A stretch of 60,477 bases of DNA, counting the filler, from Hausera hauseri (taxonomy: Eukaryota): assembly GCA_046269625.1 (NCBI GenBank). It is 11 parts of 11 records of this genome, joined end to end, with 100 filler letters (N's around TTAATTAATTAA, not from the genome) between each part and the next. Parts side by side here need not be neighbours in the genome. Positions count along the whole stretch, not along the records: positions 47,695 to 51,675 come from JBJURY010841857.1; positions 51,776 to 60,477 come from JBJURY010566561.1; 9 more parts are not named here. One strand, given 5' to 3'. Shown here piece by piece: positions 1-60,477 of this stretch (position 1 is the stretch's first letter; every line of letters starts with the position of its first letter). The translations under genes and the position numbers were made by a program. Below the pieces are notes generated by a model. The model was given only the letters and a program-made list of their open reading frames with translations, ran no database searches and was not told where the DNA came from.

Positions 1-986
1 TACAGTGTAGTTCCCAAGCTCCTAATAAGAGAATACGCTAAAGGGTTGAGAGACAAACCAGAAACGGAAATTAAAGTAAAGGTATCATCCGAATGAATGG
101 ACGACGAAGAATTTGAATGCACTACTTATACCACTGTCGCAGATATGAGACGGCGGATAATGGATATGGATGCTAAAGAAGGAGTTAATTACCGACTCTA
201 TTTCATGGGTAGGATACTAAATGAGCTAGAATCTTTAATAGACGTAGGGATCATACCCCACGAAAAAATCGAATAATAGCAAAAATCATTAGCGAACAAA
301 CCAAAGACAAAGCCATAAGGAAGGCACATACAGAACATTGCGTTGGAAAAATCATGGGGATTCAGGACGCCGCAATGTACTTTGAATACTTACAGACGGA
401 TGACGACAAACCGCAATACGATAAAAATCTAGTCCCTCTAGGTAAAACCCTGCAATCAACGAAACCAAAGCGACCGGTCGGAAGACCAAGGAAAATAAAA
501 GAAGTGGACTATAATGCAGATCTGATTAGAGAACTAAGACAACTATCAGTACCCACTCCGAGTTCAGATAATGAAGAATTAGTTAAGTTAATGAAAGATT
601 TAATAAGGATAGTTAATTATACCGGACTGCAAGGTGACATATTATCCGAGAAAGAAAGACTAATATATAATATAGCACGGACAATAAAAACTTCGCGATT
701 CAAATTATCTAAAAGTACCCTCTATGATGAAATAATAATTGATAGGATCATGATGGATAATACAATGGAAGAATTAAGGAAAGTCTTGATATATCTAGCT
801 GTAAGAATCAATCCTCTCCGAGAAAATGAATTCGACAAGACAGTCGGGTTAGCTAGGAAAACGGCGAGAAGGGTGATTAAAGAAATAAAATGCACTAAAT
901 TATTCGAAAAGGAGGACAATGCGAAAGGGACAAATAACTTAGAGGACATTGTACGAAACATCTCTTCGAGTAAAGGGAACGGACCT

Positions 987-2815
987 AATTGGTTAATCAA
1001 TCTACTGACAATAATGATGTCAGTGAAGCAGATAGGAGCAGTCACCATATACGACTGTGACAAATTCAAGGTGGGTCAGAAATACTCTCTGATGGACTTA
1101 GAAACATGTGAAGATGCAAGACCCCATAAGTTAAAAACAACAGGAAAGAAATACATACTGTACCAACAGCGTGAGTTAATCGCAATGGCTATAATAGAAT
1201 GCATGATACGTGGATCTCGCAGCATATTTCATTGTGGCAACATGCACGGTCACTCTTCAATAATCAAACCTACCACACCATTGATACCAATGAACATGGA
1301 CAGACAACATTGTTTAGTAGCCCGATCAACCGGTAAAATGGTTTAGGTCGGCATGGAATTGGAAACCCAAGAAGGAAAAATAATTAGAGCATACAAAGTA
1401 GCAGTGGAAAAATTAAATAATCACACCGGTTACTGTGTCGGAGCAGAATATGATACGGGAAAAGGAGTAGAAGGATGAATAGTTGTCGTAGATTTCTACA
1501 AAACCCAGCTAAGATCCTTAAAGGCAATGTTTCATAGCGTTACCAAACTATTCACCAAAAATCAAAAATGTCACATTCATGATGGTGCTTGCACGTTCCG
1601 ACGTTCAGTTATCGTACGAAATCCACCTTCCGAGAAGGATTGCAATTTCATCAAAATCAAAGAGTTAAAGTTTAATGAGACCACCGGAAAGCGTTATTCG
1701 AGCAAATTACATGTTAATACCAGATCAGGGGAAGATGTGATAGAACAGCCCATACCAACGATATTGATATCAGACGCACACGGGTTAAAATTTATTAGGA
1801 AAGATATGTTATCACACAGCGTTGTAGTTATGTATGCCACTAACTACGAAGCATTTTTTGTAGCGGAAACAGAAATCGATATGAAAACGCACGATCTGAA
1901 AACACAAAATGTGCGGATCAAGGATTACCTCAAAAACCGAGACGACTATTTCTATTACAAAGGGCAGACCGGGATAACAGAACTTTATCACAAAATAATA
2001 ACAAATGACTGCAGATTAGATAGTGAAGTCATGAGAACCAAACTGGCTCTGATTTACGCCAACACAGAATTGGCATCACCGAGTATACCAATGAAAGAAG
2101 GTGTTTTTGGACGGGTTATTGGAGAAGTTCTATTAACCTACGAATGCGAAAAAAGAGACGTTCCGATCAACGTAGAAGAAAAAAGATGCATGCAAGAACT
2201 ACCGGTTATTTACGAGAATATGCCAAGGCTACCGATGCCACTCGCCAAAGTATTACTGGAAAATGCGACGGAACCAACCATACTGAAGGAATGCAAGACG
2301 AGTCTGAGGGAACCAATGTTTAGACGCAGTGAAACCGACTGGATAAGTCTACCGAATTGAGGTACGGCCGCAGCTCCTAGTAAATTAACCGGGAAAAATC
2401 TAATCAATGGATTATTGGAAGATAGATTCGCAGATACAGTTAATAAAGGAATTTATAGGCCAAAAGACATAGAAGCTTTTAGGCAGTTTTTACAATTTTT
2501 ACGACAGCGAACTTATGAATTAAATCGGGCCATGTCAATGGTCATAGGCGACACCCGCTTTCAAGCGAAGTGAGAGTCGTTGCTCGGCGCTAATAATTAT
2601 CAAGGAGTAACTTCAGAGATATTGTATAAGATTTGGGGAAGGTTTTTAATTTTCGGACAAACCGCATCTGGATTTTAAGCTATCTACTTTCTAGTCCAGT
2701 TAATTAAAGCAGTAATCCAAGCTATTACAAATGGATATGAAATATTCACATTGACAGGATTCTCTTGCAAAATTTTGAGTGCAATTATTACACCCTTTGG
2801 AAAAATGCTTAAGGC
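987..2815 (+). pseudogene. Env-like fusion glycoprotein of chuvirus (Jingchuvirales) type, with in-frame stops
   Basis: Hydrophobic signal, then VTIYDC..YSLMDLETC..LYQQ..ECMI..RSIFHCGNMHGHSSII, LYHKIITNDC, GRVIGEVLLTYEC, CMQELPV, GIYRPKDIEAFR, and a C-terminal hydrophobic block IWGRFLIFGQTASGF*AIYFLVQLIK..NGYEIF..GFSCKIL. Motif order matches recalled chuvirus glycoproteins. ORFs 354, 1527 and 2751 share one frame. Confidence 0.8.
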
Positions 2816-3334
2816 CTATAAAGAAAATCGATGGAAGAATGACGTAGAATGCGACGTCGAGTACTATAACGGTAAACGACGAGGGAGACCCTTGATCCTG
2901 TATAAACGAAAAAACAAGAAGGTGATAACTTGGAGGGACAATTCAGACGATGTTGAGCCTAAGGGAGAAAAAGTGAGTTCCAGAAGAAAGATGCACAAAA
3001 CGTGTTCAGTAATTAATGCGCCACTACCCATAATGCCGCCCACAGCACCGATATATGAAGACTGCGACCGCAAATCAATTGCATCATGCAGGTCCGAAAT
3101 TTATCAGAAACCTATTACTTATGAAGATCCTTATGAAAAAACAAAGCAATACGGAGTACTACGGAAAATGAATGTTATCAACCAAGGACCAACAGAAAAT
3201 GACCACGAAATATTGTACTCAAAAGGATACCGCGTCACATAGAATCGGAATCAACGATCTGGGAAAACCAGAAACTATGTTCAGTCTCGAGTTCACTACC
3301 CCAGGAACCGCTCATTGACAGCCGCGTTACTAAA

Positions 3335-5206
3335 ATGACAAATAACCACTTGTACCCAAACGGAGAATTAAGACAATTAAGGCACGATATTATCTCATCG
3401 CCAGAGATAACAATAAATGGACATAGAGTCTCTACAACAAAGCAATCAAAGAGAGCGTCGAATTGTTTTGGGACAGTGATAGAAGGCAGACCTTTTGCGA
3501 AAATACACATTGAAGATTGGGAAGTGTATGCATTAATCGACACAGGATCAGAGAAGTCGTTTATAAAATATGAATCGATACCAATCACACCTCTAGAACA
3601 ACTATTCCCACTATTATCATCAGATCCAGGTAGCGTAGGAGCATTTGGACAAGCATCAAAGCCAAAATTTAAGTGGACTCCTATCGTTTATATGATGGGC
3701 CAAGCACTTCAACACGAATCTGCGATAATGGACCAATTAACAGATGATGTAGTACTAGGTTGCGATATATTGAAACAAATACCAGACCTGGCTATCGATG
3801 TGCATAACGGAAAATTAATTGAACTCGAACCAATAAAAGGGACAAAAGTAATAAAAGAAAGAAAATCAGGCGAAATATGGATTTCGGTAAATGAAGGCAT
3901 TCCGCCCAGAACGGAAATGAAAAATTTTGCACAAATTCGTTAAGACGAATATTTAACAGTATATTTTGAACCAATAGAGAATATCCACCCAAAGCTCATG
4001 TTTAGTAATGTCCTATCTAGAGTAGCGACGGGACGCATATTTATCAGATTAGTAAATAATGCACCAGTTCCCGTGAAATTGCACGCTAAAACTACTTTAG
4101 GTAACACTTGTAGAGTATCGGCAGTAACAAGAGAAAAAAAACCATACAAGTGTGCTGAATTTCGGCCCCATGTTGAAACCAAATTTTCTCCTGAAGCATA
4201 TTGCAAGTTCTACGAACTACTATGTAAGTACCGTTCAATAATCGCACAAAATGAGGAAGATGTAGGCACGGCGAAAGCCTTGAGATTAAGAATCCCATTA
4301 AGGAAGAAATCGATCTAGAAGAGCAGAAAATGCCTAAATGGTATCCACCTCCTCATTCACTGAGACCAGAAATAACTAAAGAGGTAGTGCGTATGTTAAA
4401 GGCTGATATAATTCGACCAAGCTACCAATCCTGGTACTCACCTATACTTATGATTAAAAAGAAAGGAACTACAAAACATCGATTTTGTATAGATTATCGG
4501 GCATTAAACACTCTGATGATGAAAGACTCGTTCCCATTACCACAAGTAAAAGAGGCATTGGATAGACTATCAGGAGCAAAATGGTTTACCACTCTTGACT
4601 TACAGCCGGGATACTGGCAGGTGGAGATCGAGGAAGAAGATCGATATAAGACAGCGTTTAAAACACACGATGGAGTATACTAATTTAATGTTATGCCCTT
4701 TGGCATCACTACAGGACCAGCTATTTTTACCAAAATGATGAATAAGATGCTTGTGGGACTTGACCATGCATTCGCGTACTTAGATGACGTGATGATAGCA
4801 TCGAAAACAAAAGAAGAACAATTAAGGGACATCGACGATACGCTCATGCGACTAGAACAAGCAGGATTGAAACTAAATCCAGAGAAATATAAATGGGCGC
4901 AGAACGCAGTATCATATCTGGGACATATAGTTGGAGAAGGAGGATAAAAGCCAGATAAATCCCTGCTGAATAAAATATCTGATTTTATAAAATCGCAAAA
5001 TCAAAAAGAGTTAAGACATGTGGTTATTATGTTACTTATGTACCGAACAATTCGAAAATTAACGCACCACTTTATCGTCTGCTTAAAAAAGGAACTAAGT
5101 GGAGATAGCGGACGTTTGTTGAAGAAAGCAGAGAAAAACTATTCAGTTACCGAATTAGAAACGTTAGCTGTTAAGGAAACACTCCGACCTTTTAACGTCT
5201 ATGTCT
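3335..5206 (+). pseudogene. pol: pol (aspartic protease, dUTPase-like spacer, RT, deleted RNase H)
   Basis: DTG protease, IPPRTE..IRLVNN..KTTLG spacer, YLDD RT. Stops, frameshifts, and an internal deletion near 5100 relative to copy B. Confidence 0.92.
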
Positions 5207-10870: not shown

Positions 10871-10891
10871 GTAAGTTTTTATTTAGGCATA

Positions 10892-30045: not shown

Positions 30046-30049
30046 TGCA

Positions 30050-39420: not shown

Positions 39421-39660
39421 AAATTGGCGCTGACATGCATTTAATCTATTTGATGCATTAAAACAAAGTGTTCTAGAATGTTCAAGAAATGAACGAACTT
39501 CAATAAATTCAAAATTTAAAAAATATATAAACGAGGCAGTGTGCGTTGATAGAGTTATACATTTCATTATTTCAGAAATCAGTTTCAAGAATGGTGAGTT
39601 TTTATTTGTGCTCGTCAAATAATTGGTTGATTTTGGATTTGCAAACTCTAGAAACAGTGC

Positions 39661-41922
39661 TTGGCTCAAATCCATGAGCCTGAAAATTGTAACAATATTA
39701 TGAAGAAATATTTCAGCCATCTTTACAACAGGACTGAGTATTATATGTGCAATACATGTGAGGTAGTGTGCCAAACGAATTATGAGGACTTTTACAATGC
39801 CAATAAGCATCACCTGATTTTATTCACCAAGTCGAAAAAACAGATATTCAATACGAATATGCCAATAATGACTTTCACGCCTAAGCAAAATCAAGGACTC
39901 AGTTTATACGTGCAATTCAACCCTCAGAACTGTCATAATACCATGAGGATATACTATGGATACAAATGCAAGTGGGTCCTGTATTATATTTGTCCAGGAT
40001 GTGAGGCTGTATGTGATAGAGAATACATGCAGTTTTATGAAGATCATATTGCACATTGGACAGATTTCACGTCAAAGTCAAAGAAGGCCATCTTTATTCA
40101 GCAACATAATCTTGATGCATCTGCTTCGCAATATTCTGCTCCACATTATGCTGATGGATCTGCTGCTGCAGCTGCGAAGCATATTAGGGAATTTAAACGC
40201 GCAGCCGCATCAGGTGCAGCCACATCAGACGCAGCGGCTCCACAAAAAAGTCATAGACAGCGGCAAGTTGATGCTGCAGAATTAAAGAGCAAATGCCGCA
40301 GATATGTTATTGATGCAACTGGCCAAACAACCCTCCAAGAGTTCCTCTTATACACAAAGGAAGAAAAAGAGTGAATTTTTTAGGACAACATGGCGAAGCT
40401 CAAAGCTCTTAAAGTGAACATGAAACTGGAGGCCACATACATCAATGTTGATGGCAAAGAATGCAATAGGGCCTTCAAGACCAAAAATAGTCCAATATTG
40501 GCTGCAGAATGGAACACAGAATGGCTGCATGTGGAACACAGGAAGCTGATCCACGAGGCTGAGGAGAGCCAGGATAAGAAGAGCGGCTGGACTCTGTCGG
40601 CCATACAAAGAGTTCGTGTGCATGTGCACAAGTATTCCCCCATGCGGAGCAGTTCCTATATTCAGTTCCCTGAATGGATTCGGCAAAAAAGCGCATGCAT
40701 TAATGTCCATAATAGCTATAACAAGTTCTTCAAGTATGCCATTCTATGTAAACTCATACGGGATCACATAATGCTTCACGAGTTTGTCTATGTAAGGATG
40801 TGAAGCACAACTATGACTTCCAATATATTAATTTCCCACCATCCATAGACGAAGTCAAAAAATTCGGGAAACTCAACAAAAATTCTATCCACTGCAAATA
40901 TGTGATGTTGAATTGGAAGATCATAGCGGTCCGCTCCTACTAGACGATGGAGAAAAGAAACATTATGTTTGGATCAAGAACTTTGAGCGTCTAGTCAGAT
41001 ATCAAATTACGAAACACACAACAAGAATTGAAATATGCAAACGATGCCTGTCCCATTTTAGTGGTGATGCAGCAGTGGACAAGCTTGCAGAGCACAAAAT
41101 GTATTGCAACAATAATTATTGTATCAGGCCAGAATTTCCCAAGTAGGATTACATTGACTTCAAGGAGTTCGAGAAGAAGATCAAGGTCCCAATAGTCATC
41201 TATTGAGACTGAGGCTATTCTCAGGCCAGTTCAGAGCTGCAGTCCTAATCCACAACATAGCAGCACAACGGCATACCAATATCATGAACTCTCATCATAT
41301 TGTATGTATGCCAAAGGATTGGACAGTGAACCATATCTATTCAGTGATCCAGGCGCAGCAGCTCATTTCATGAAGGGACTTGAAGGCATGGCTCACAGGA
41401 TTGGAGATATGCTGCAGCAGCATAAGGATACAATGAGCATGTCGAAGATGCAGGAAGAAGAATGGCGCAAGGCAACAGCATGTTACTTGTGCTCAAAACC
41501 ATTCACTAAGGATAATTATAAAGTCAGGGATCACTGTCATTTTACAGGCACATATCGAGGCGCGGCATGCAACAACTGAAATCTACGTTGCAGAACATGT
41601 ACATTTGTGCCTGTAGTGTTCCACAACATCAGTGGCTATGATTCCCACTTCATTGTTCGGGAGCTGGGAAACATTGTAGTAAACATTGATGTGATTCCCA
41701 ATAGTAAGGAGAAGTACATCACCGTTACAAAACATTTTGAGAAAATCAGTCTCCGCTTCGTAGACAGTTTACGTCTCATGTCGTGTTTACTTGACAGTTT
41801 AGTGAATAACCTCCCTACAAAAGAACTTAAGTAGACAAAGCGGTTCTTCCCCACTTCATTTGACCTCGTCAAGAGGAAAGGCGTGTTTCCCTATGACTAT
41901 ATAACATCATTGGAAATATTGG
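39661..41922 (+). mobile_element. polB: Protein-primed PolB family B, 5' part, decayed
   Basis: KSGWTLSAI, MRSSSYIQFPEWI, HYVWIKNFERL, CYLCSKPF..VRDHCHFTGTYRGAAC, PVVFHNISGYDSHF, KGVFPYDY. Homologous to 31100-33340. Confidence 0.88.
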
Positions 41923-42022: not shown

Positions 42023-45000
42023 TGCCAAACTAACTGATTGCTAACAACAGCATATCATCCTCAATGCAATGGTAAAGTCGAAAGATTGAACTATACCGTG
42101 CAATGTATATTATCAGCTATGATAGACAAGACGCAAAAAGATTGGGACATCCACTTAAAAGTTGTGCAGTTTGCAATAGCAACCACACCTACTAGCTCAT
42201 CAGGATATACACCATTCAAATTAATGTATGATAGAAATCCATTGCTGCCAATGGACATCCAATTATCACCAGAAAAGAAAATACCTGAAGATTAGTCTGA
42301 TGAAGAAATACACGAAAGCGTTGCAAACAGTTTAGCAAATTGTTGGGAAAAAGCTAAACAAGCCATCAAACAATATAAACAAGAATATCAAGAGTACTAT
42401 AATAAAAAAGCTAAACCTCATAAATTCCAATCAGGTGATAAAGTAATGGTACATTACCCAGTAGCGAAACCAGGAAAATCATTGAAACTAACCCGCACAT
42501 TTAGGAGACCCTACTTGGTAGTAAAGCTCACACCTGAGAACATATTTATTGAAAAGGGCACTGGTAAAAAGACCAGAATTAAATGTATATTAGCCCAAAG
42601 AGTTACAAAAGGACCCAAAGATCCAAAAGTTAAAGAAGAACCTCAATACTCATTGCGATCATCGAAACAATTAGTTTTAAACCAGCTTGTAATTTAGAGC
42701 CGTTATTCCTTATAATCATGATTTTTGGCCTAATACTATCAACCACGGCACAAACCTTGGAAACAGACCCTATAAGTAAAAACTTAGAATTACGAGCAAA
42801 ATTGCCTGGCAAAATTCATTGGAATCAGTAAATGGACTATTCGTAGGAGAATCAAAGTACAAAGAAATCACTCAACTAATCTTACCACCAGAAATTAATG
42901 ATGCGATTTGGTTATCAACTAAACGTTGCTCAATCCCATTATTAAATGAGATCTGTCTTGTAGACCTTTACTTTCTAACAACTGAAATGTTATTGAAACC
43001 CAAACAGAAAATCCTGCCAATAGCAAGACAGGTATACGTAGAAAAAATTGGCCCTACCTTTTTCTTTACACAAGAAAAGGACAATGAACCAAAACTAATA
43101 GACAAGGTCATGATAAAAAGACCGACCTTAACTAATGATGTTGATTTACAAATAACATTATTTCCCAAGATTATTCAAACACAAGTTTGGCGAAAAAGCC
43201 TTAAACCTCCATATTCATATGCCATTACTGCAATTCTTTAAAATGAGACAAGAAATAATATCAACTATGACCACCTTATCTCCAACTAGTAATAACCCAA
43301 TTACTATATTCAACCTGAATAAAATACCCAATGTTACCATGATAGCAACAGACTCGTATATTGAGTTTAAAGTCTTTCAATTACTAGACTATCCTATTTC
43401 CATAACTTGTGTAGGAAAATATCATATCATATACGCCACCATAAAAAGCACGAAAGAATAACTAGATGCAGTGACCTTCAGCCTGACGAAGAGTATCTAA
43501 TCGTTTTCACTCAACACCATGCTGTAACAAGACATCGAACAATTAGAACTCAAACGAGAACTATAAAAAATTTAGCGCTTGAAGAATTTCTAATCTATAC
43601 AACCATACATCTAGTAACTAGTCCCACCACTCAAACCAATATGTTGAAAATCTTAGTACCCTCCATAATAATAGTATTCCTTCTACTGTCCATATCCACG
43701 CCGTTCGTAATAATGGAACTAAAAAGACTTTCTAAAAAACGAACCACTATGAATAAAACTTTCTTACTATCAACCAATCTAATATGTTTAGTAGGTTATA
43801 GTATGGAGTGGATAGTCGACGTTGAGGAATATAAAAAATTCAACCTAAACTATAAATATCCAAAAATACAAACAAAACAGTTGTATAAATTAGCACACCT
43901 TCAAAAATCAAAAAGCTTATACACACATAATTATATAACACATCAAAAACCAATAAAACTTGACTACAGAAAGTCGAGTACCACACATATTCAAAGACTA
44001 TATGAAGCTAATCACACCGTTCAGATTTCTTTTCAACAACAACAAAGTATGGAAACAAATTATTTTGACCTGGACTTGGATTTCTCAGCAGATAACAGTA
44101 TCAGCTCCGATGACTCAACCGAAACAGTAATCATCAACCCCAAACGAAGGGTCATTTTACCAGAAGAGGAACTAACAACAGTTCCCCAATCTGCAGATCA
44201 ATCGACAAATAATATATCAAATTTTACCTTTCGCAACCCATTACAAAGTGGAATTTCCAGAGGAATCCTAGCATCATCAAGTAATAAAAGAAATTGTCTA
44301 AGTTGGGATCCACCACGAAAATTTACTGCAGAAATCAGACGTAAATCCTTTACAATGGACGATCTAACACAACAAAAGAAATCGAAACTCTATGATCAAT
44401 TGGTAGAAAACGTCGAACAACTGGAACGAGATAGAATAGACAAAAGACCCTGGAATGAATTATATAACAAATTCGTTAAAATCTATCAACCAGAGAGGAA
44501 CATTTTTCCTTCCAAGTTCTATGCTCGATTTCAAGAACTAGCTGAAACATCTTCAGACATCTTTTATCCAGAATGTCGCTATATTGATAACACACTCAAA
44601 AACACAACAATTAATGAAAGATCATTCAGGATACTGCGTATTGAAACCCCTTCAATGAATATAAACCTCAAATCTATGTTGCATATAGACCAACAATTTG
44701 ATAAAGTCCTATGGCATGTAGCCCAAGGAAAACTACAATTCAAAGCAGATGCTGATATGTATGACGAATTAAGATTACAGAACTCATTGCTAACGTCCAA
44801 AATGACAATGAGTATCAAGGCTCCATCTTTCCAAACAAAAATACTAATGCGAATATTATTAACACCAGTAATCATAGGAGTCAAAATTTGTCAACTTTTG
44901 GATATCCACCTAGGTCTCCAGCCTCCAATATTCTATCAAACGCCCAAAGAATTGAATATGTGCAACTATCGGCTAACCAAAGCCAATAACTTTCGATACC

Positions 45001-46366
45001 TAGCTGTCTCGCTAGCTTACGCACCAAACGGTGATCCTATTCCCATAGAAGTAATTATAGCAGACAAAGCTAAATTGGTTATATTTCATGCATTCATTAA
45101 TCCACGAAGAAAAGTGGCGAATACCAACGAGAATCACCGTGGACTGTCAATGGCTTTAATTCAACAAGCCAAAGATGAAAAAATAGTCCGATCAGAGGTT
45201 ATCAAGTATTTATATGGATATATCGTAATTAGTGCTAACACCAGCACAATATTGAAGGTACTTCGTATACCTTCCACCTTTGCCTATGGTATGATGGATA
45301 TATTATCTACACCAAATACTAAAGCCCGCTTTGCCGAGGCTAAAATGAAACCAAACCTGACACAATTACCAAAGATGTATAATCTAATATACGAATTTCC
45401 AAAAGCTGCTGAACCTATCTTACAGTCCATTATCGAAATACATAACCAGCTGTTAGAAAACTGCACAAATGAATAATGGGAATGGAATTGGATCCCTCCA
45501 GATAACAACCTAATCAGTGACGAAGGATTTATGAAAATACCAAAACAATACCATAAAGACTATCAATATGAAGAATTACAGAAAGTAGATGAAGCTAACC
45601 AAAGCTCAACCTGTGAAAATCTAATACAACAAATGAAATGTAATACAATGAAATTGCTACAAAAAGCAATAAGTAAAAAAATTCTTATTCAATAGAACTA
45701 TCAATATTGTTATATGGACAAACACAACAAATCATTAATGCCCAGTTCATGCAAAAACATCTAACGGTTATAAACCAACATAGACAAATCCAGCCTAACC
45801 CCAGGCTCGGATCAATAGTTGAAATAGTGTATAAACACTCCACGAATAATACACTACATTTAGCGATAGTTGGGGCCCAACTTGAGACTATTAAAAGTCT
45901 TGACCACGAACCGGTATTGATAAATCAACCAATACCTATGCAGTTGGACCTAATTCCCACCCCTAAACCAAGGGGTACAAAGATCATCAAGTTGCAAGGA
46001 ACCTCCAGAGAAAAACTGAAGATGTTTTTGTATCAAAAAGAAGGCCGATTCCTATTGGAAAACGTTTACAACATTGAGGAGATAGTTCAAAACGAAGAAG
46101 AAATGACTAAAGACAGTATACCAATTCAATTTTGATATACCATTTTCTTTGTGTTTTTTACTGTATAATTCTCTCTATCTTTTATGTTTTATTGTATCTT
46201 ACATTTGTATTGACATTGTCGTAACTTTATTGACATTTTGTTTCTCTTTATGTCATATATATTATCACATTCTTAAAGTTTCTTTTATATACTGTCTTTG
46301 CTGATTTTTTCGAATAACCCAATAAAAACTAATTTTGTAACCAAAATTTTTTAAAAGGGGTAGAAA
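42023..46366 (+). mobile_element. 3' part of a Ty3/gypsy element: IN, then ~3.4 kb extra coding region (signal, FN3-like, TM, DEDDh-like), then PPT
   Basis: TAYHPQCNGKVERLN, GYTPFKLMY; post-IN region similar to 51776-52900; PPT aaaaggggtagaaa at 46353-46366. Confidence 0.85.
43407..45476 (+). CDS. 689-aa open stretch of the post-integrase ORF: FN3-like end, TM (43650-43715), cytosolic region, REX4/ISG20-like exonuclease fold (44991-45450)
   Basis: CSDLQPDEEYLIVF; ILVPSIIIVFLLLSISTPFVIM; VIFHAFINPRRKV....RGLS..LIQQAKDEKIVRSEVIKYLYGYIVISAN..ILKVL. Confidence 0.65.
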   Translation: MCRKISYHIRHHKKHERITRCSDLQPDEEYLIVFTQHHAVTRHRTIRTQTRTIKNLALEEFLIYTTIHLVTSPTTQTNMLKILVPSIIIVFLLLSISTPFVIMELKRLSKKRTTMNKTFLLSTNLICLVGYSMEWIVDVEEYKKFNLNYKYPKIQTKQLYKLAHLQKSKSLYTHNYITHQKPIKLDYRKSSTTHIQRLYEANHTVQISFQQQQSMETNYFDLDLDFSADNSISSDDSTETVIINPKRRVILPEEELTTVPQSADQSTNNISNFTFRNPLQSGISRGILASSSNKRNCLSWDPPRKFTAEIRRKSFTMDDLTQQKKSKLYDQLVENVEQLERDRIDKRPWNELYNKFVKIYQPERNIFPSKFYARFQELAETSSDIFYPECRYIDNTLKNTTINERSFRILRIETPSMNINLKSMLHIDQQFDKVLWHVAQGKLQFKADADMYDELRLQNSLLTSKMTMSIKAPSFQTKILMRILLTPVIIGVKICQLLDIHLGLQPPIFYQTPKELNMCNYRLTKANNFRYLAVSLAYAPNGDPIPIEVIIADKAKLVIFHAFINPRRKVANTNENHRGLSMALIQQAKDEKIVRSEVIKYLYGYIVISANTSTILKVLRIPSTFAYGMMDILSTPNTKARFAEAKMKPNLTQLPKMYNLIYEFPKAAEPILQSIIEIHNQLLENCTNE

Positions 46367-49640: not shown

Positions 49641-52600
49641 AAACAATGAAAAATAAAACATCACCGAGCCATACGTCGGAGGGGTTGTCAATTGCGCTTG
49701 GTAATATTGGGAAAGGCACCAAGCATATAGACGTTTGAAGAACTGCCAAAGTCGGCTGCTTGGGGGCCTCCGTACACAAGTAAACGGTTTTCTTGTAGGT
49801 TTGGGGAACCAGTTCCACGCCTACTGTAAATTAACACACAGACAGAAGCCATGGGGGATTTGGGGAGATCAGGTGTGGTAGCATTTTTCGGGGATGAGCG
49901 GTCGCACTTGGTCAGTGGCTCGAACCTGTCCGTCCACCTTGACCTCCCAAGTTCAGTGTATGGATCCCAGTAGCCATCTCCTAGTAACAGTCTCGACCGA
50001 CTGGCTAAACTACACTGAGCGCCCTGGCTCATGTTTGTGTGTCTGTGGTTTCCCACAGGCCTCAGACAGCGTGACTGCAAGACCATTCCTCATTCAGCAC
50101 TCTTAGTGAAGGCACCAGGGTGCATGACGTGACGATCCCTTTGATAGAGCACATGATTTCCCAGAACAAACATGGTTATATCCAGGATACAGCGGTCATC
50201 GGATGGCGGGGAATGCACAATGGTGAGCCCACTGGGTCTGTAGCTCCTGGAATGTGGGATGACTAACAGTAGGAAGGGGTTGAAATCGGGGACACACCAG
50301 CAGAAGCAATTTGGAGCTAGCAAAGGAAAATAAAATACTCCCCAGTGATTAGTGGTACAATGCCCACCATGCCCTGCACAAACTGCATGGGATAGAGGAT
50401 AACTACCGCCCCCTCCCCCACCCGACTATATTTATGCCCTACCATTTGTTCAAAAAAAAAACGAGCTCGAGACCCACAGACTACAGCAGGATGCAGACAT
50501 TGTACACACCAAAATGAGACAGTGAAGCACCACCTGCTGTCTTGCTCCACACTCCAGGAGCTGAGACAGACTCTACTACCTGACAACCCAAACATAGACA
50601 GTGCCTTATATGACAGACCACAGCAGTTTATTATAACTGCGCAGTACCACATACTGGCATCAAAGTCAACAAGAGCTGACACCTGATGACTGTGAATCAA
50701 AGATAAGACAAGAAAGAAGCCGTACCGAAAAGGGATGTATATTTCACAATAATCATCAGGTACCAAGCCATGCAGCGTAGGCTGCCTTAGATCACCATAT
50801 CTAGCGCTTTTATCATGTCTCCAATCATTTCAACCATTGATCGTTTTTCGATCCACCTTGTCACTTCACTTTCATAATATGCGCCTCCACGTTGTTCATG
50901 GATCTATATTTAGTATCATAATTAGGCCAACACCAGAAACAAACTGTTTTCAAATTTCTTGTACGAAACAGCTATTTAAGTTTAATTTCTCTCAACACTT
51001 GCATAAATTCGCCATTCTGGGTTGGCGTTTATCAGACATCGTGACAATATTTCACGTAATGTCACGCTATTTAACGTCTGTGCCACTAGCCTCGCATAAA
51101 ATTATGACAAGGACATTTTGCCACAGAAATAATTGCTTATCTCCTCCATAAAACTTCAGGCACGACAAATTTAATGGTCGTAATATATTACGGTACCGGG
51201 TGTCATTATACGAAGCTTTACATGGAAGAAGTTATGTGGAACCCTAGGGCATTTTTCCTAAGCGAAGAGTTATGAGACAGGCAGAAGTGTGTCCCAAATA
51301 TTTAAAAAATATATTCATATACCCCTGTAATAGTGTGTTGATCGTAGCTCACAAGTTATCCATTTAATTTCATCAGTCGCCTCCCCTTTTGGTTTGTGTT
51401 CACCTGCAGAGCAGAAATCACGCTTTAATGAGTGAATTCTCATAAAAGCCACCGGATACGCTGAGCTTATTAAAAAGACACTGAGCTGTTAAATCGACAC
51501 TGTGAAGGACGGTTGTAAATGTATTTTTAGGCCACAATTTGGTTATGTTAAAACTAGTACCGAAATAGAGATTTATTTTATGAATAACAAAGTTGTGTGT
51601 GGCCAGAACGAAACTGTCGATGTTCTATGTTGTTTAAACCCAGACCATGGAGAACGTATGCTGCAGAATCTTTTGNNNNNNNNNNNNNNNNNNNNNNNNN
51701 NNNNNNNNNNNNNNNNNNNTTAATTAATTAANNNNNNNNNNNNNNNNNNNNNNNNNNNNNNNNNNNNNNNNNNNNTACTGAGATCATTATATGGCATTAC
51801 TTCAGTTTTACTGCCAATAGTTCGTACTTTAAAAGTTTTAGGGTTCTTACCCTTTGCGGTAATTCTGATTATATAGTCATGTTGCGGCCGTAAGGACCTG
51901 CATTCAGTTTCCTGACTATTCTTTCTCAGGATCACAACTTGATTGGTATGCCAGGTGCGACATTCAATTTTAACGTCTCGATTTAACGTTTCTTCTGCAT
52001 AGAATAGAATTCTATCACTCTTGCCAAAATCTTGACTAGTATGTTTCCTGGCATTTCGTCTAAAGTGACGATCGTAGTAGTGAGAGTTGTACTTGGAACT
52101 GTAGATGGTCTTCTCATAGTGGTTGGGAAGGAAAGCTTTTATCTTCCGATTTTTGGACGCTATCCTCTTAAATAAGTGATTTATTCTCCGGGGTACTTAT
52201 TGTACAAGTCGAATTGTAACTGATAATCCTGTCCTGGTTGTATTACACAGCACGTGGTGGATCGGCGTCTGGCCAGGTAACAACATTTCGGGTTAGAAAT
52301 AGAAGCATTCAATGGTATAAATCGGACTGAAATTTGCCTATCTTCGGGCAGTTCCACCTTAGTTTTGATTCGAATACATTGGTTTTTTAAGTCCTTTGAA
52401 ATTCCAATAATCTTATAGTATAAAAGTCTCTTAAACGGGTCAGTGCTTCGGATTATTTTGTCCATCTTGGCATGGTTTGCGTCCTTTCGTTGGGGCATTC
52501 TTATTAAGAGTTCTGTAATTATATAAGCTTGAGCTCCAAACTGATTAGAATAAAACATTTAAAATCTGTACCCGTAGGCTTGTCCAAAATCTAAATCACA

Positions 52601-52999
52601 ACATCTTTTGTAATGTCCGTACGGAAAATCGCATGTCCTTATCGTGGATCTAGTTACAAATATTATTTGAAATTTCACATAACTCTGAATGGGTTCACTT
52701 GTTTCAAACCACGCACATCGTTTATTCCATTCCATATCGTATATTCTAAATGGCTGTAAGTTTTGGATATCTCTTCGTCTTTCCGCATATTGTAATTTTT
52801 CAGCTTGATTTATCGATTTCACCTTCGATATATACGAAGCGATTAACGGTAAGGCCAAGACTATTTGCACATAAGATATTGGTCTAGTCACTATTGATGA
52901 TGTTTTTGTTTCTTTATTTGTTTTGCACGAACGCAAATTATAGCGTTTGTATGGTCTTAGTTCCGTTTTAACTACTCTCCGAATTGATATTACCTCTTC

Positions 53000-55900
53000 C
53001 TTACCGTTTTTATTTCTATAAACTGTAGTTGGCATAATCTTGGTAACTTCACAAGATCTTCTACCTGTCCTGGTAAGCTTAAGAGATGTGCCTTTCTTTG
53101 ATACTGGATAGTGTACGTAAACCCAGTTTCCGGGTTCTAGATCGTGTGGTTTAGCCTTCTTATCGTATTGCTTCTTGAATTGTTCCTGGTATTCTTTGGA
53201 TAATTCCTTGGCTATTTCCCAACACTTTTGTAACCTCGATTATAATACTTGAACAAAATTCTGCTCTAGATCTTCCGTTTTTGTTGTGAGGGAATTAATC
53301 CTAAATCTGTAGGCAGGACAGCTTCTCTACCATACATCATAAAAAACGGAGTGAATCCTGTTGCAGGATGTGAAGTCGTATTAATGGCAAACTGTGTACC
53401 TTCTAAGAACTCATCCCAATCTTTCTGGTCTTTTGCGACTACTGTCGATAAGATTCGTATAACTGTCGCGTTCATTCGTTCGACCATTCCGATACATTGT
53501 GGATGATAAGCTATGGTAGTTAGTCGTTCGATCTCAAAAAGTTTGGTAATTTTGTTGAACAATTCGCTCGTAAAGTTCCTTCCTCGGTCAGTCAAAATTT
53601 GTTTGGGTGTCCCGTATCTTCAAATTATCTTCCGGACTACTAATTCTGCCAAGGTCTCGGCCTTTTGGTCTACTAACGTTATAAGCTCAACAAAGTGAGT
53701 TAATCTATCTACTCAAGTCAAAATATATTTATTGTTTTTGTGGATCGTAGGTAATGGTCCTAGAATATCCATAGACATTGCTTGCATTGGTCTATCGGGC
53801 ACGTTGATAGGCTTAAGCTCGCCGGCGTAGTTTTCACTTTCCTTTGTTTGGTTGCGCATACATCGCAAGCGTTCACCCAATTTCTCACATCGATATAAAT
53901 GCTCGGCCAATAGTACTTTTTTAATATCCTTTCCCATGTCTTTTTCCACGACATGTGTCCGGCTAAGTATAAATTATGTTCGGCCACGAGTACTTCTGTA
54001 CGCAATCCTTTTGGTATTATACTACCAATTTTCGTTCCTTTCGTTCGTAGTATAACACGTTTTCGTGGTTCAAATCTCCAACAACGCAGTATTTGCGACC
54101 ATATCGTCGTAGGTGTTTTCGCAGCTGATGACTCTTGAGTGTTACATTGGTGTAAACGAACTCGATAATCTGTTGTATAACCTTATCTTTTCTTTGTTCA
54201 ACAGCAATCTCCAATGCCTTATCCAGTGTGAGAGTTCGTTGTCTCTCTACCAAATCTTCAAGTTCGGCTTTCCTTATTATCATAACTGCGCTGGTTTTGG
54301 TTTTAAGTCTCGATAGTGCGTCGACGTCGACATGTTTATTTCCTGGTTTGTATTGGAATTCAATATTGTAACGTGAGATCTCTTCGATCCATCTGTTAAG
54401 TCTATAGGTAGGATTATTTGCTCTACCCTTCGAAGTCGTAACTGCCTTATGATCAGTAACGATTACGAACTTCTGTCCGTATAAGTATAGGTTAAAATGT
54501 CGCAGGGTTTCTTTCACCGCTAGCGTTTCTAACTCCGTGACGGAATAGATCTTCTCTGCTTTCTTCAAAGAGCGTCCTCCATATGCAATCTGGTGTTCTA
54601 GATCCTCATCCTCTCGTTTTTGAGCTAATTCATATCCGATGCCTTCCTTACTGGCGTCTGTTTTGATTATGAACGATAGATTAAAGTCAGTATATCTTAA
54701 AACAGGTTCACTAATCAGAATTTTCTTCATTTCATCTAAAGCCTTTTGTTCGACGTCGGTCCATTTCCATTTGATCCCCTATTTTAGGAAGCGACATAAC
54801 GATACCTTTATCTTCGCGTTATCTGGTACGTAGGTGGCGTAATACCCACATAACCCTAACCAGTGTCTTAATTCTTTTTGATTCTGAGGTTCCATGCAAT
54901 CTTGTATCTTGCATAGTAATGATTTTTCAGGCTTCGACCCTCCTTCTACAACTATGTGTCCAAGGTACGACACAGCATTCTGAGCCCATTTGCATTTCTT
55001 GGGATTCAGCTTTAGTCCAACTTGTTCCAGCCTCATGAGCGTACCTTCAATGTCCTTTAAGTGATCCGCTTCCGTCTCTGACGCAATCATGACGTAATCC
55101 AAGTAAGAGAACGCGTGTTCCAGTCCCATAAACATTTAGTTCACCATGCGGGTGAAGATGGCTGGTCCGGTGGTTATCCCGAATGGCATTACGTCGAATT
55201 CGTATAAGCCGTCGTGTGTCTTAAATGCCGTCTTATATCGGTTTTCCTCCTCTATCTCTACTTGCCATTTAGCTCCAGAGAGTCTGTCCAAGGCTTCCTT
55301 TACCGATGGTAACGGAAAAAATTCTTTCATCATATGTGTGTTTAGCGCTCCATAGTCAATACTAAATCGGTGCTTAGTAGTACCTTTCTTCTTAACCATA
55401 ATTATAGGCGAGTACCAAGATCTATAGCTTGGCCTTATTATGCCGGCTTTTAACATTCGTTCAACCTCTTTGATTATCTGTGGTCTTAGTGAGTGTGGAG
55501 GAGGGTACCATTTCGGCATCCTTTGATTTTCCAAATCTATTTCGTCGTTCGATAAAGGCTTTTTCTTAAGTGGAATCGTGAGTCTTAAAATCTTGGCTCG
55601 GCCAATATCTTCTTCATCTTTCGCCATAATTGAGCTATAACGACAAAGTAAGTCGTAAAATCGGCAGTACGATTCCGGTGAGAATTTAGTCTCAACGTAA
55701 GGTGGGATTTCGACACCCTTATAAATTTTCTTTTCTATAGTAATTGGAGATATTCTATACGTGTGTCCCAAAGTGGTATTGGCGTACAGTTTGGTCGGAG
55801 TTGGTGCATTATTCGTTATTCTGTTTGGTACGTGGCCTGTTGATAATCTTGTCAAAATATTGCTGAGTACAAGGTTTGGATTAAGTAATTCTTTCGGCTC

Positions 55901-56400
55901 GAAATATACTGGCTGATCGTCATCTTGATGTATTTGGGTATATATGAGTACTTCCGTTCTGGGCGGTATGTTTTTATCTACTGGGATCCACACTTCTCCG
56001 AACTTCCTTTCTTTAATGGTTTTAATACCTTTTATTGGGCCAAGTTCTATCAACATGCCTGCATTGAAATCGATTGCTATATTGGGTAGTTATCTCAATA
56101 AGTAGTATCCTAATACCATATCATCCGTTAACCGCTCCATTACTGAAAATTCCTGGTGAAAAGATTGTCCCATTATGTGAATCTCTGGTTTCTATCGAAA
56201 TTTACTTTTTGATGATTGTCCGAAGGCTTTCGGTACTTCCTGAATCTGTCGTAGGAGGTGGATACAATTGTCCTCGTAAAAATTTCGGTATTGAATCGTA
56301 TTTTGTCAATGATATTTCGGATCCTGTGTCTATCAGCGCATATACTTCCCAATCTTGTAATTGAATTTTTGCAAAGGGTGTTCCTTCAATTATTGTACAG
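53000..56400 (-). pseudogene. pol: pol (PR-RT-RH-IN), copy B
   Basis: Gypsy domain order. RT has an 11-codon deletion removing the LDL catalytic motif, and YLDD is changed to YLDY. Confidence 0.93.
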
Positions 56401-57089
56401 TAATAGTTTGGTGCCACATGACGGCGTCGGATCGTGGATATTTTGTAACCATTAATGGTGACTTCTGTGGTTTCGACTGGCTTGTCAATCAGCTGCCTTA
56501 ATTCTTCGATTAGGTATAGTTCATTAGTCGCGCCACTCGTGTTTTCTGCTCTTTGGTTTCTAACCGGCGACTGAACATCTTGGTTTCGGAGATTTCGTGC
56601 CTCACAGCTTCGAGTAAATGTCGATTGCGTTTCGTTTGGCTTAGTTATTCTAGGTGAGTAAATTATACCGTGGTAGTCGACTGCGGATCGAAGGGGTGGA
56701 GCCGAGGTCTCCTCCGTTTCGTGGATCTTGCGCAATATCCCATAGCGTTTTGTTTCTTCGTAAGGATCCTCTAAACTAAATAACTTTCAATAGATGTCTG
56801 TCTGGCACGAGCTCGTAGATTGTTTCTCGCAGTCGTCATATATAGTTGCTGTTGGCGGCAATATTGATAGTGGTAGTTTCGTAACAGAGTAATTTTTGTG
56901 CCTACTCGGCCTGAGGATGACGGCTCCCCCTTAAACTCGTCATCATCGGAATTTTTTTTATCGTGTTTTACTGACTATGAATTTTTGCCTATAATTGAAT
57001 AGATGTCTTTTACTTTTTCGGTTATGGTAGCCAACATGTCGCTCCACATCTCTTTTCCATCTACTTTCTTCATAAGCCTTTAAGAATTT

Positions 57090-58890
57090 GCCGAATGGTG
57101 TAATAACAGCCGTTAAAATTTTGCACGAAAACCCTATCAAGGTGAATATCTCGTATCCATTTATGACTGCTTGAATTATAGCTTTTACTAGTTAAATTAA
57201 GAAGTATATTGCTAAAAATCTTGATGCGGCTTGTCCGAATATTAGGAATCTTCCCCAGATTTTATATAATATTTCCGTAGTTACCTTTCTATCATAGCCA
57301 ACACTAAGTAATGACTTCCATTTTGCCTGAGAGCAAGAGTCCTCTAGTACTGTATGCATCGCTCTGTTTAATTCATGTGTACGTTGGGGGGGACAAACAA
57401 GAAATTGTTTAAACGCCTCTACTTCTTTTGGTCGGTAAATACCTTTTGTGGCTGTATCCTAAAATTTATCATCGGTTATTCCTTTTATCAGGTTTGTTCC
57501 TGTCAGATTGGTAGGTGGTGCGATAATACCACCGTTCGGTAGACTTACCCAGTCGGTCTCGCTACGTCTGAACATCGACTCTCCTAAGCTAGTTTTACAG
57601 TCTCTCAAAATTGTCGGTTGAGTGGCATTTGCCAACAACACTGTGGTAATCGGTGTTACTAATCTCGTACGTCCTGATATATCACTTGGAGTTCTTGTAT
57701 ACACCTTTTCTCTTTTACATTAATCGGCACGTCTTTCTTTTCACATTCATAGGTCAATAAGACCTCTCGAGTTACTCGTCCAAAAACGCCCTTCTTTATT
57801 GGAATTACTGATGATGCCAACTCCGGATTGGCATATATCAGGGACAGCTTAATTGTCATGATTTCCAAGTTTAATTTACAGTCATTTGTTATCATTTTGT
57901 GGTACAACTCGGCAATTCCGGCTTGTCCTTTATAGTAAAAATAGTCGTCTCTGTTCTTCAAGTAGTCTTCAATCCGGATGTCCTGAGTCTAGAGTTTGAA
58001 CGTTCTGGCGTTTATTTCTGTCGCGGCTACAAAAAATGCTTCATGGTTGGTGGCATACATTACGACGTCGCATCTGGTGAGCACAGATTTCTTTACGTTT
58101 TAATCCATGAGTATAAGAAATCAGTATCGTAGGCGTAGATGTTTAGGCTACATCTTCTAGTATTTTAGAATTAGTTTCCATTCTACATATTTATCGCTTT
58201 CATGTCTTCTCGTTGAATTTAGGTTCTTTGATTCTGATAAAATTGCAATCGGTCTTGCTGGCGGTTCCCAAATTACCACGGAACCTCGAAACGGGCATGT
58301 GCCATCTTAAATGTATCACTTGTGGTTCTCGGTGTAAAGTTTGGTAACGCTATGAAACAACACTTTCTGTATACGCATTTATGTTTCGTAAAAATCCACT
58401 ACTACGATGTTTGACTCTAACCCCTATACGGTATCGTATTCCGCACCGCAACAATGTCGGGTGTGCATATATAGTCTTCCTGCTGGCACTTTATTCACTC
58501 TGATTATTTTCCCTTGCTGCATTTCCATCTCCATACAATCTCATTTTATTCGCCCCGTTTTTCTAGCTTGCTTACAATGCTGTCGCTCTAAATTCATCGG
58601 AATTAGTGGGGTTGTTGGCTTAATTATTGACGTGTGTCCATGTACCAATCCACAATGGAAAATGCTGCGAGATCGCCGCAAAATACATTCTACTCCATTC
58701 AAGGTAAGTAGTTCGCGTTGCTGATATAATATATAACTTTTCGCTTTTGTCTTTAGTGTGTGGGGCCTCGCGTCATCGCACATTTCCAAGTCCATTAACG
58801 AATATTTTCGGCCAAGTCTGATTTTGTCACAATCATATACTGTGACTGCACCCATAAACATCATCATTGTCAAAAAATTGATTAGCCAGT
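57090..58890 (-). pseudogene. Chuvirus-like glycoprotein, copy B
   Basis: AVTVYDC..YSLMDLEMC..RSIFHCGLVHGHTSII; LYHKMITNDC; EVLLTYEC; IWGRFLIFGQ. Confidence 0.8.
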
Positions 58891-60477
58891 TCGATTCATT
58901 TCCTCTGCGATTTCCGGTTACATTTCATAGCAGATCTCCGAATCTATTGTTATCGAAGAAGAATCCACTCTGATGCTCTTCTTCTTTCTCCAATACCTTA
59001 GACCAGTCCACTTCTCGAGGCATTTTCCTGGTAACCTATCTTGTCAAACTAGTAGCTTTGCTAATTTCATTTTCTCGGTTCGGGTTGGTTTTGATGGCTA
59101 GATATAGCAACGCTTTTCTTAATTCTTCTATGGTATTTTCTACCATAATCTTCTCGATTATCGTTTCATTGCTTAAGGTACTTCTGGATAATTTATATCG
59201 AAGGTTTTTCATAGCCTTTGCGGAGTTAACTATGGCCTTCTCCTTCTCATCTACTACATCACAGCCGAGATTAGAGTGGTTCACTACTCGTATCAAAATT
59301 TTCATAAGTTCGTTCAGTTCCTCATTATCCGCATTAAAGGTTGGTATAGACATTTGTTTGAACTTCCTGATTAAATCTCCATTATAGTCGATTTCTTCCC
59401 GCGTTTTTCGTGGTCTACCGACAGGACGCTTCCGTTTTGTTACAGTAGGTATATTTCCATTGATCGACACTAATTTTTTATTGTATTGCTCATTATATTC
59501 ATCTGTCTGCAGGTACTCAAAATATACTGATGCATCTCGGACTCCTATTATTTGTCCTACCTGCTGTTCTGCTTTAGCCTTCCTTATAGCCTCTACCTTT
59601 GTTTCGTCGATAGCAGTGAATATCACTAACCAGTTTATTTCGTCTGGAATAATTCCAACCTCTATCAACAACTCTGACTCGTCTAGTATCCTTCCTCTAA
59701 AATAAAGTCTATATCTCAGCTCATGGACGTATCCATTTTCCTTCATCCACAGTAATACATCCTTGACAATGGAGCGCATAGTAAACTCTTGTTCTCTCTC
59801 GTCCATCTAGTCTGATACTATATTTACTGAAATCATTTCCTCTGCCTTTGCCTTTAAGATTTTAGCATATTCCTTAAGTAAAAGCTTAGATACTGTACTA
59901 GAAATCGTACCTTTGCTAGCTAACTTAGTTACGGTAGGAACTAAATGTCTCAATTGAATTTCAGTAAGGTTCACTTCAGTTAATTGAATTAAATCTTTCT
60001 CGGTTTGTACCGGGTCCAGGAGCATTTCTACGTTGAACCTTTGGTCTGGAGAGTATATCTCCATTTCCTCCAATCGTATTGGGGTTTTCGGATTCTCGGC
60101 AGTCATTGCGTCTAAATAGGCTTCCCAATCTGGTTCATTTTCATTATCCGGCAGTTGATAGCTCCTCGACGGTGTATTAGTTGACCTGTCTACACCTGCG
60201 GTCCACGTAGTTTTTCTGAGTTTTTGTAGTTTTTGTTGTATTTGGACCATTTTCGTCGTTCGGAAATATCGTCCATTAGCAGACGTTCGGTGGAGCAGTG
60301 TTAACAACGAACATAATTCTTCGGGTGAAATTAATCCATTTTCTTGATATTTCGTTAGTTTAGACGTGACATCTCTTTGCCATCTTTAAACGAATTGTGA
60401 CCTGTCAAGTTTTTCTGCTTCTGTAAGAGCGTATTTGTTTTTATAAACTTCGAGTTCTTTAGCTAGTTCGTCTAATC

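What the first reader, a model, noticed from the sequence alone, without database searches (positions are those of the whole stretch)
51776..60477. Single giant polyprotein with coherent alternating membrane topology
Seen: all 8.7 kb of copy B is coding on one strand, broken only by sporadic stops and shifts, most of which differ between copies. The frame is still coding at the window edge and no Gag is recognisable in the ~1300 codons before PR. Inference: the hydrophobic segments give cytosol (Ubl/AT-hook), lumen (GP), cytosol (Pol), lumen (FN3), cytosol (exonuclease-like, taken from contig 9). This is a flavivirus-like signal-peptidase strategy that would tether Pol to membranes at 1:1 with Env, unusual for LTR elements.
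Basis: inference. Interest (0 to 1): 0.8.

Follow-up and report, generated by a model that had tools for sequence, protein, structure and literature searches.

The report
Decayed Burro-like enveloped retroelement polyprotein
This is a broken copy of a virus-like jumping gene whose intact relatives encode capsid, a viral fusion protein and replication enzymes in one giant protein, a layout already published for flatworm "Burro" elements; the main addition is a fibronectin-like module after the integrase that is likely a second membrane protein.

Summary
The observation largely holds. Contig 11 (minus strand) is a decayed Ty3/gypsy element: Ubl, AT-hook, a tentative Bcl-2-like helix bundle, signal, gB/chuvirus-type glycoprotein, TM, PR-RT-RH-IN, second signal, FN3-like units. 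It is cut at both ends. Intact natural relatives carry this order in one ORF of 2,600-4,800 aa, with Gag in frame upstream, so the "missing Gag" most likely lies beyond the contig edge. The single ORF with Env between Gag and Pol, plus Ubl and BCL2 cargo, was published for planarian Burro/GYPSM1 elements (PMC6431247); GAG-ENV-POL order is also in PMC13524379. The alternating topology is supported up to the FN3 module: one TM after Env in 13 of 13 natural relatives, and signal-FN3-TM after integrase in 5 of 6. One relative inserts an extra signal-FN3-TM pair that keeps Pol cytosolic. This rests on simple hydropathy only. The fifth segment is not in this copy: the exonuclease is real in the lineage but is a separate ORF in both intact loci. 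I did not find the FN3 module or the topology in the texts read. This scan has noted Burro-like elements repeatedly on other DNA, once with the FN3 protein.

The parts
59629..59998 (-). Helical segment plus ubiquitin-like domain (one stop inside)
   Evidence: Profile from L001/L002 units only hits here, iE 2.2e-6; profile incl. window rows hits ISG15 (E 9e-7) and ubiquitin in PDB; Pfam ubiquitin alone only E 0.12
60000..60477 (-). Open helical coding stretch running off the contig edge; Gag expected beyond it
   Evidence: Sequence; knuckle-to-GP gap 233-824 aa in 7 relatives, 542 codons available here
59405..59431 (-). AT-hook-like motif
   Evidence: Pfam AT_hook E 0.32, below cut-off; similar GRP[RK] motif in copy A, P0006, P0016; position
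58960..59350 (-). Helical domain at the position of the Bcl-2-like domain of relatives (tentative in this copy)
   Evidence: The 4 natural relatives in A3 hit Pfam Bcl-2 (best E 2.3e-5), the 2 window copies do not; relatives-only profile hits copy A only, iE 0.041; B is 50% identical to A here; models too poor
58850..58891 (-). Internal signal-peptide-like segment S1 directly before the glycoprotein
   Evidence: KD19 1.47 in B, 1.57 in A; 1.63-2.19 in 7 of the 11 relatives scanned, not flagged at 1.6 in P0151, P0006, P0004, absent from truncated P0008; aligned junction
57230..58849 (-). gB/chuvirus-type fusion glycoprotein ectodomain, broken by stops and 3 frame changes
   Evidence: PF24664 E 3.2e-19 and 1.2e-18 in two frames, copy A 2.9e-56; copy A's GP nests in the 99% SH-aLRT set of 16 polyprotein GPs
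57093..57218 (-). Glycoprotein TM (H1, KD 2.35) followed by a weaker hydrophobic helix (H2, KD 1.77) and a basic stretch
   Evidence: in 13 natural relatives H1 KD 1.79-2.43, H2 0.78-1.58
56050..56420 (-). Aspartic protease (DTGS at about 56330), one frame change
   Evidence: Copy A hits RVP E 5.1e-4; A/B 54% identical; position
54368..55500 (-). Reverse transcriptase and RNase H; dead copy (33-base in-frame deletion near 55268, altered YxDD motif, stops)
   Evidence: RVT_1 E 2.8e-19, RT_RNaseH E 1.9e-27; deletion; 36-41% identical to 8 intact relatives
53280..54017 (-). Integrase (zinc finger, core, tail) over three frames
   Evidence: Integrase_H2C2 E 4.5e-17, rve E 8.9e-12
52814..52870 (-). 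Second signal-peptide-like segment S2 after integrase
   Evidence: KD19 1.66, weak; matching segment after integrase in 6 of 6 ORFs that run past it and in contig 9
52184..52810 (-). Cys-containing predicted lumenal stretch, possibly two further FN3-like units (tentative)
   Evidence: Motif seen by eye; not detected by the relatives-only profile
51776..52016 (-). FN3-like unit; contig ends just after it, before any TM
   Evidence: Relatives-only profile iE 8e-9; 12-unit profile hits neogenin E 8.7e-4, IGF1R 1.3e-3, Dscam, fibronectin, gp130 in PDB
1..5206 (+). Copy A: diverged sister family, Ubl to RNase H
42023..45476 (+). Contig 9: another related family; integrase tail, signal, FN3-like unit, TM (43641), then in-frame exonuclease-like region lacking the first acidic motif
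   Evidence: blastp to the L002/L001 exonuclease ORFs E 5e-6 and 7e-6; Arena_ncap_C E 0.012

Best explanation
Contig 11 is a decayed, two-end-truncated copy of a Burro-like Ty3/gypsy element whose intact relatives encode Gag, Ubl/Bcl-2-like cargo, a gB-type Env, Pol and an FN3-like module in one ORF, which is likely threaded through the ER membrane four times and likely cut by host signal peptidase. Shown: domain order, single ORF in relatives, decay of this copy. Inferred mechanism: Gag and cargo stay cytosolic, anchored by S1; signal peptidase frees the Env N-terminus; the Env TM returns the chain to the cytosol, where PR-RT-RH-IN fold; S2 opens a second lumenal part (FN3 units plus Ser/Thr-rich stalk) anchored by a final TM with a short tail. 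The element's own protease would then release the enzymes. The FN3 protein would be a second envelope protein, most simply for attachment. The exonuclease is an accessory that is usually a separate ORF.
For: GP followed by protease in one ORF in 11 of 16 hits scanned (16 chosen from 150 as long or top-scoring), plus P0151 and the L001 and L002 ORFs of 3,426 and 3,655 aa. Gag knuckle in frame upstream in 7 of 13 checked; Retrotrans_gag or Ty3_capsid weak hits in P0013, P0014. Purifying selection in all 10 modules compared, linker included. Contigs of run X1 differ in length at 7 of B's 10 frame-change sites, so those breaks are not shared by all copies. One TM after Env: H1 KD 1.79-2.43 and H2 below 1.6 in 13 of 13 natural polyproteins. 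Signal, FN3, TM after integrase in 5 of 6 ORFs that run past it. L001 inserts a complete signal-FN3-TM pair (KD 2.2 and 3.0) between Env and its main protease, keeping Pol cytosolic. Published Burro layout matches.
Against: Topology rests on Kyte-Doolittle windows and a recalled insertion scale; the same scan also flags beta-strands inside protease, RT and FN3, so segments were assigned with help from domain identity. In B itself S1 and S2 are weak (1.47, 1.66) and H2 passes the threshold (1.77); counted as a TM it would put Pol in the lumen. The flank before H1 is basic (2-5 K/R), not what positive-inside predicts. Sequon density does not separate predicted lumenal from cytosolic parts. P0012 has no FN3 hit; the second segment of P0151's insertion is not flagged. 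Two stops are shared between A and B, more than uniform chance. Copy A's GP sits on a long branch of a quick tree. Splicing or subgenomic expression was not tested.
Confidence: 0.7

Rival explanations
1. The ORF is continuous but most Gag, Env or FN3 protein is made from spliced or internally started RNAs, so the 1:1 membrane-tethered precursor is a minor product.
For: A capsid needs far more Gag than Pol in many retroelements (own knowledge). Accessory ORFs may exist alternatively as subdomains of the polyprotein in Burro, and the exonuclease is separate in L001/L002 but fused in contig 9.
Against: S1 and S2 lie inside the ORF with no conserved stop between modules; the frame is kept across all junctions in distant relatives; single-polyprotein Atlas virus is a precedent.
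Confidence: 0.2
2. The post-integrase module is not a virion protein but a host-modulating surface protein (receptor mimic or superinfection block), like the Ubl and Bcl-2-like cargo.
For: Best PDB hits are receptor ectodomains (neogenin, IGF1R, gp130, Dscam); unit number varies from 1 to 3 and one relative lacks it.
Against: It is co-translated with Env and kept in 5 of 6 long ORFs and in contigs 9 and 11; the hits are weak and reflect only the fold.
Confidence: 0.3
3. H1 and H2 both cross the membrane, so Pol is not on the Env tail as drawn and would need recoding or re-initiation.
For: H2 KD 1.77 in B and 1.71 in P0013 with a free window; 8 of 53 stand-alone GPs have H2 at 1.6 or more.
Against: H2 is below 1.6 in 13 of 13 natural polyproteins in the anchored scan, with 2-7 K/R after it; a lumenal RT/IN could not work.
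Confidence: 0.07
4. Chance assembly: a chuvirus-like glycoprotein EVE or host FN3 gene lying next to an ordinary gypsy element.
For: Stand-alone GPs of this family are common.
Against: Same order in copy A and in many intact ORFs; GP groups with polyprotein GPs; run X1 covers all 30 bins of the 8.7 kb with 16,227 contigs.
Confidence: 0.02

Closest known systems
Burro / GYPSM1 giant gypsy-like LTR retrotransposons of planarians (Arkhipova and Yushenova 2019, PMC6431247, section 7 read in full; Grohme 2018 and Jurka 2007 not seen)
   Same: One giant ORF with Gag, Ubi/SUMO-like, BCL2-like, mononegavirus-type Env in frame between gag and pol, PR, RT, RH, IN; decaying copies with stops and frameshifts are mentioned.
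   Different: The text names no FN3 module, signal peptides, topology or exonuclease for Burro. No MATH, BIR or ankyrin seen in this copy; only one protease here against up to several in relatives. No Burro sequence was available for direct comparison.
GAG-ENV-POL HSV/gB-type errantiviruses of Platyhelminthes, Bryozoa and Nematoda (Chary and Hayashi, eLife 2026, PMC13524379)
   Same: gB-type Env before Pol; ectodomain flanked by signal plus TM or by two TMs. The Schmidtea (Platyhelminthes C1a) Env rows of supplementary file 3 look like my relatives by eye, the bryozoan rows do not.
   Different: No mention of fibronectin, Bcl-2, ubiquitin or exonuclease in the 7 supplements searched, nor of fibronectin or exonuclease in the main text.
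NERV nematode endogenous retroviruses (Sacco et al. 2022; not held; continuous gag-env-pro-pol ORF recalled from the abstract)
   Same: Env before Pol in a metavirus, as cited in PMC13524379.
   Different: Nematode-restricted and without FN3, as far as recalled; not checked.
Atlas virus, Belpaoviridae (PMC9094657, passages)
   Same: Single Gag-Pol-Env polyprotein of 2,828 aa with envelope glycoproteins that in related viruses are cut by cellular proteases.
   Different: BEL/Pao class, Env after Pol, class II phlebovirus-like fusogen.
DEDDy exonuclease ORF3 of bdelloid LTR retrotransposons (PMC5408684, abstract, section 10, passages)
   Same: A DEDD exonuclease carried as an accessory ORF downstream of pol.
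   Different: Here Pfam RNase_T type, in an Env-bearing lineage, and degenerate and fused in contig 9.

Membership tests
Ty3/gypsy (Metaviridae) | PR-RT-RH-IN order with gypsy-type RNase H and H2C2 integrase | tested here: met
   no BEL/Pao-type families among the hits
Ty3/gypsy (Metaviridae) | LTRs, PBS, PPT, target-site duplication | not testable with these tools
   Contig 11 is cut at both ends, no genome held; no direct repeats in L001/L002, which also lack ends
Burro/GYPSM1-like | Env in frame between Gag and Pol in one ORF | tested here: met
   Met for intact relatives; for this copy Env-Pol continuity is supported and Gag lies outside the contig
Burro/GYPSM1-like | N-terminal Gag with CCHC knuckles | tested here: inconclusive
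   Absent from the 542 codons held; present in 7 of 13 relatives at 233-824 aa from the GP
Burro/GYPSM1-like | Ubi/SUMO-like domain upstream of BCL2-like domain | tested here: met
Burro/GYPSM1-like | BCL2-like domain directly before Env | tested here: inconclusive
   Pfam hit in 4 relatives, not in the window copies; weak profile link; models uninformative
Burro/GYPSM1-like | dUTPase-like region between PR and RT | tested here: inconclusive
   A conserved ~95 aa region is there in B, A, L001, L002 but has no PDB hit at E 5
Burro/GYPSM1-like | RT or Env clade shared with named Burro elements; size above 25 kb; planarian host | not testable with these tools
   No Burro reference could be loaded; resemblance of relatives to Schmidtea rows judged by eye only
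HSV/gB-type errantivirus | gB/chuvirus-type ectodomain flanked by signal and TM | tested here: met
   PF24664, hydropathy; fold not modelled
Flavivirus-like signal-peptidase processing | Cleavage by signal peptidase at internal signals, odd crossing number before Pol | tested here: inconclusive
   Hydropathy and parity fit; no predictor or experiment

The most novel reading that the evidence does not exclude
Burro-like elements are two-glycoprotein enveloped retroviruses built from one multi-pass polyprotein: a gB-type fusogen before Pol and a previously unannotated FN3 type I attachment protein after integrase, both released by signal peptidase, with Gag and Pol clamped to the ER membrane as in flaviviruses. 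Lumenal cargo is gained only as signal-plus-TM pairs, as L001 shows.
Probability: 0.4. Interest if true: 0.6.

Novelty: new member of a known kind. Interest (0 to 1): 0.3.

Why it matters
The headline layout is published, and this copy is dead and truncated. What may still be useful is the conserved signal-FN3-stalk-TM module after integrase and the parity-preserving insertion in L001. Together they turn the Burro domain list into a testable processing model, name a candidate attachment protein, and bear on the open question of whether these elements form infectious particles.

Tried and rejected
Own genome not held. Word-index protein searches for longer relatives found nothing for the GP or contig 9's ORF, although the full HMMER scan found long relatives, so those blanks mean little. 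First metagenome scan and GTDB scan found nothing. A profile of the whole pre-GP alignment had no PDB hit. ESM Atlas on P0004 15-125 gave only sub-0.9 leads; two later Atlas requests did not complete. AlphaFold models of the pre-GP region (pLDDT 39) and of the Bcl-2-like region (pLDDT 44) were too poor, and the fold search was meaningless; FN3 was not modelled. A 4-relative Bcl-2 profile missed both window copies; hhalign gave probability 3.8%, score 20 against at most 16.1 in 30 shuffles. FN3 units give no Pfam fn3 hit singly. Non-standard genetic code rejected: only 2 of 25 unshared stops face Trp and all three stop types occur. Shared stops as module borders or a programmed signal rejected: different codons, inside domains, open in relatives. 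In one search the copy B row was mis-anchored, so B's values are taken. The FN3 hits are by construction; one search is the leave-out test. No RNA holder listed. A bulk Pfam scan of the other contigs failed on output size and was not repeated. First words search of earlier findings was empty.
Full report
What is there. The window is 11 contigs joined by spacers. Contig 11 (51776-60477) codes on the minus strand from edge to edge. Pfam on the three frames gives a Monjiviricetes (gB/chuvirus-type) fusion glycoprotein, then RT, RNase H and integrase; copy A in contig 1 adds the protease hit. Copy B is dead: about 26 stops and 10 frame changes on my track, plus an in-frame deletion in RT. A and B are separate families: synonymous sites are saturated (pS 0.69-0.84) while pN is 0.10-0.36 in all 10 modules compared, the GP-PR linker included. 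Two of A's 9 stops coincide with one of B's 20, more than uniform chance, but with different codons and inside domains. One public run holds the family along all 30 bins (16,227 contigs, mostly 85-95% alike), and its contigs differ in length at 7 of B's 10 frame-change sites. One more length difference, at 52804, was seen in a single contig.

Intact relatives. A full HMMER scan with copy A's glycoprotein gave 524 hits. I scanned 16 of the best 150, chosen as long or top-scoring. In 11 the glycoprotein is followed by protease in the same ORF; three end in or just after the glycoprotein, one is a stand-alone type and one has integrase upstream. P0151 (4,844 aa) and two metagenome loci add full examples. 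L002 reads Gag with two knuckles, two helix-plus-Ubl units, a helical domain, signal, GP, TM, two proteases, RT, RH, IN, signal, two FN3-like units, stalk, TM, short tail, in 3,655 aa. A CCHC knuckle lies in frame 233-824 aa before the GP in 7 of 13 relatives; copy B has only 542 codons there, so Gag most likely lies past the edge. In a quick tree of 47 GP rows (30 of the stand-alone hits kept) copy A falls inside a 99% set with all 16 polyprotein GPs, on a long branch.

Cargo. Ubl: a profile from L001/L002 alone finds B at iE 2.2e-6 and the joint profile hits ISG15 and ubiquitin. Bcl-2-like: four relatives hit Pfam Bcl-2, three of which I had picked for a BH2-like motif; the window copies do not, and the link to them is weak. 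FN3: a relatives-only profile finds B's last unit (iE 8e-9) and contig 9 (0.0065) and nothing else in the window. The 12-unit profile's 34 PDB hits at E 5 or better are all proteins I recognise as FN3-bearing (label recalled), best E 8.7e-4. Two further units in B are tentative.

Topology. By hydropathy, natural polyproteins show a signal-like segment before the GP, one strong TM after it (KD 1.79-2.43) and a weaker second helix below threshold in 13 of 13. All 6 ORFs that pass integrase have a second signal-like segment (borderline in L001), and 5 continue with FN3, stalk and a final TM. L001 inserts an extra signal-FN3-TM pair between Env and its main protease, which keeps Pol cytosolic. Against this: the method also flags beta-strands; B's own signals are weak and its second helix passes the threshold; the flank before the TM is basic; sequons do not discriminate. 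No topology predictor was on hand and both structure models failed.

The fifth segment. Contig 11 ends inside the FN3 module. Contig 9 is a related but different family. Its exonuclease-like region is real: it matches the RNase_T ORFs of L001 and L002 (E 5e-6, 7e-6) but lacks the first acidic motif. In both intact loci the exonuclease is a separate ORF after the polyprotein's stop, so it should not be drawn as part of this polyprotein.

How it likely works. One translation product is threaded through the ER. Signal peptidase would cut after S1 and S2, leaving Gag and cargo anchored by S1, Env anchored by its TM with Pol on its tail, and a second type I FN3 glycoprotein. The element's protease would then free the enzymes. 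Synthesis would be Gag:Env:Pol 1:1:1 unless RNA processing changes it, which is untested. All of this paragraph is inference.

What is known. [quoted passage not shown] PMC13524379 (abstract, section 5 part 1 of 2, sections 6 and 14, passages, word searches in its 7 supplements) reports GAG-ENV-POL gB-type elements in flatworms, bryozoans and nematodes; its Schmidtea Env rows resemble my relatives by eye. PMC9094657 (passages) gives a single Gag-Pol-Env polyprotein in a BEL/Pao element. PMC5408684 (abstract, section 10, passages) gives accessory DEDD exonucleases. PMC12440569 (abstract), PMC8532177 and PMC13238120 (passages) added nothing on this point. Sacco 2022 and Grohme 2018 were not held; their figures and supplements, and Fig. 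2A of PMC6431247, may already mark the FN3 module. I found no mention of it or of the topology in searches or word searches. Earlier notes of this scan reach the same family on other DNA, one of them with the FN3 protein; I had reached Burro from the papers before that call. A flatworm host is likely but not shown.

Verdict. A real and well-supported layout, but a new decayed member of a described kind. The residual interest lies in the second membrane protein and the processing model. Interest 0.3.

Noticed in passing
L001 4754-5320: A full signal-FN3-stalk-TM module is inserted between degenerate protease repeats and the main protease; P0151 has a shorter signal plus hydrophobic pair at about aa 2088-2140.
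   Followed up: yes
L001 10617-12107; L002 12169-13473: Separate downstream DEDD exonuclease ORFs (RNase_T E 1.4e-5 and 1.1e-3) next to small coiled-coil-like ORFs.
   Followed up: partly
P0012 aa 115-295; P0015 N-terminal half: An exonuclease-like region upstream of Env; P0012's motif resembles the arenavirus nucleoprotein exonuclease (recalled, not tested).
   Followed up: no
P0003, P0004, P0005, P0006, P0151, L001, L002: Two to seven aspartic-protease-like repeats in one ORF, some after integrase; P0151 also has ankyrin and C2H2 hits.
   Followed up: no
window 94-96 / 59809 and 1344 / 58543: Two stop positions shared by copies A and B with different codons; the first is followed by Met-Asp in both.
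   Followed up: partly
P0001: This polyprotein is filed in NCBI as a hypothetical protein of a Flavobacteriaceae MAG, most likely animal DNA in a bacterial bin.
   Followed up: no
window 5307-10496: Decayed unrelated gypsy gag-pol (27% to B's RT-RH) beside a fragment that looks like PRP8 (recalled, by eye).
   Followed up: no
window 18886-20358 and 21067-21666: 490-aa ORF with several AT-hook-like motifs, followed by an integrase-like fragment.
   Followed up: no
window 10597-16732, 29086-33647, 37974-41922: Fragments that look like Polinton-type DNA polymerase (by eye); contigs 6 and 8 are 75% identical over 2.3 kb.
   Followed up: no
window 22420-22496 and 28909-28985; 24237-24706: Contig 5 begins and ends with the same 77 bases and holds a 470-base palindrome; an AAA-ATPase-like fragment lies near 25900-26400.
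   Followed up: no
L004, L005: Two IMG/VR records with stand-alone GPs of this family and large ORFs, laid out like chuvirus genomes; their GPs fall outside the polyprotein set.
   Followed up: partly
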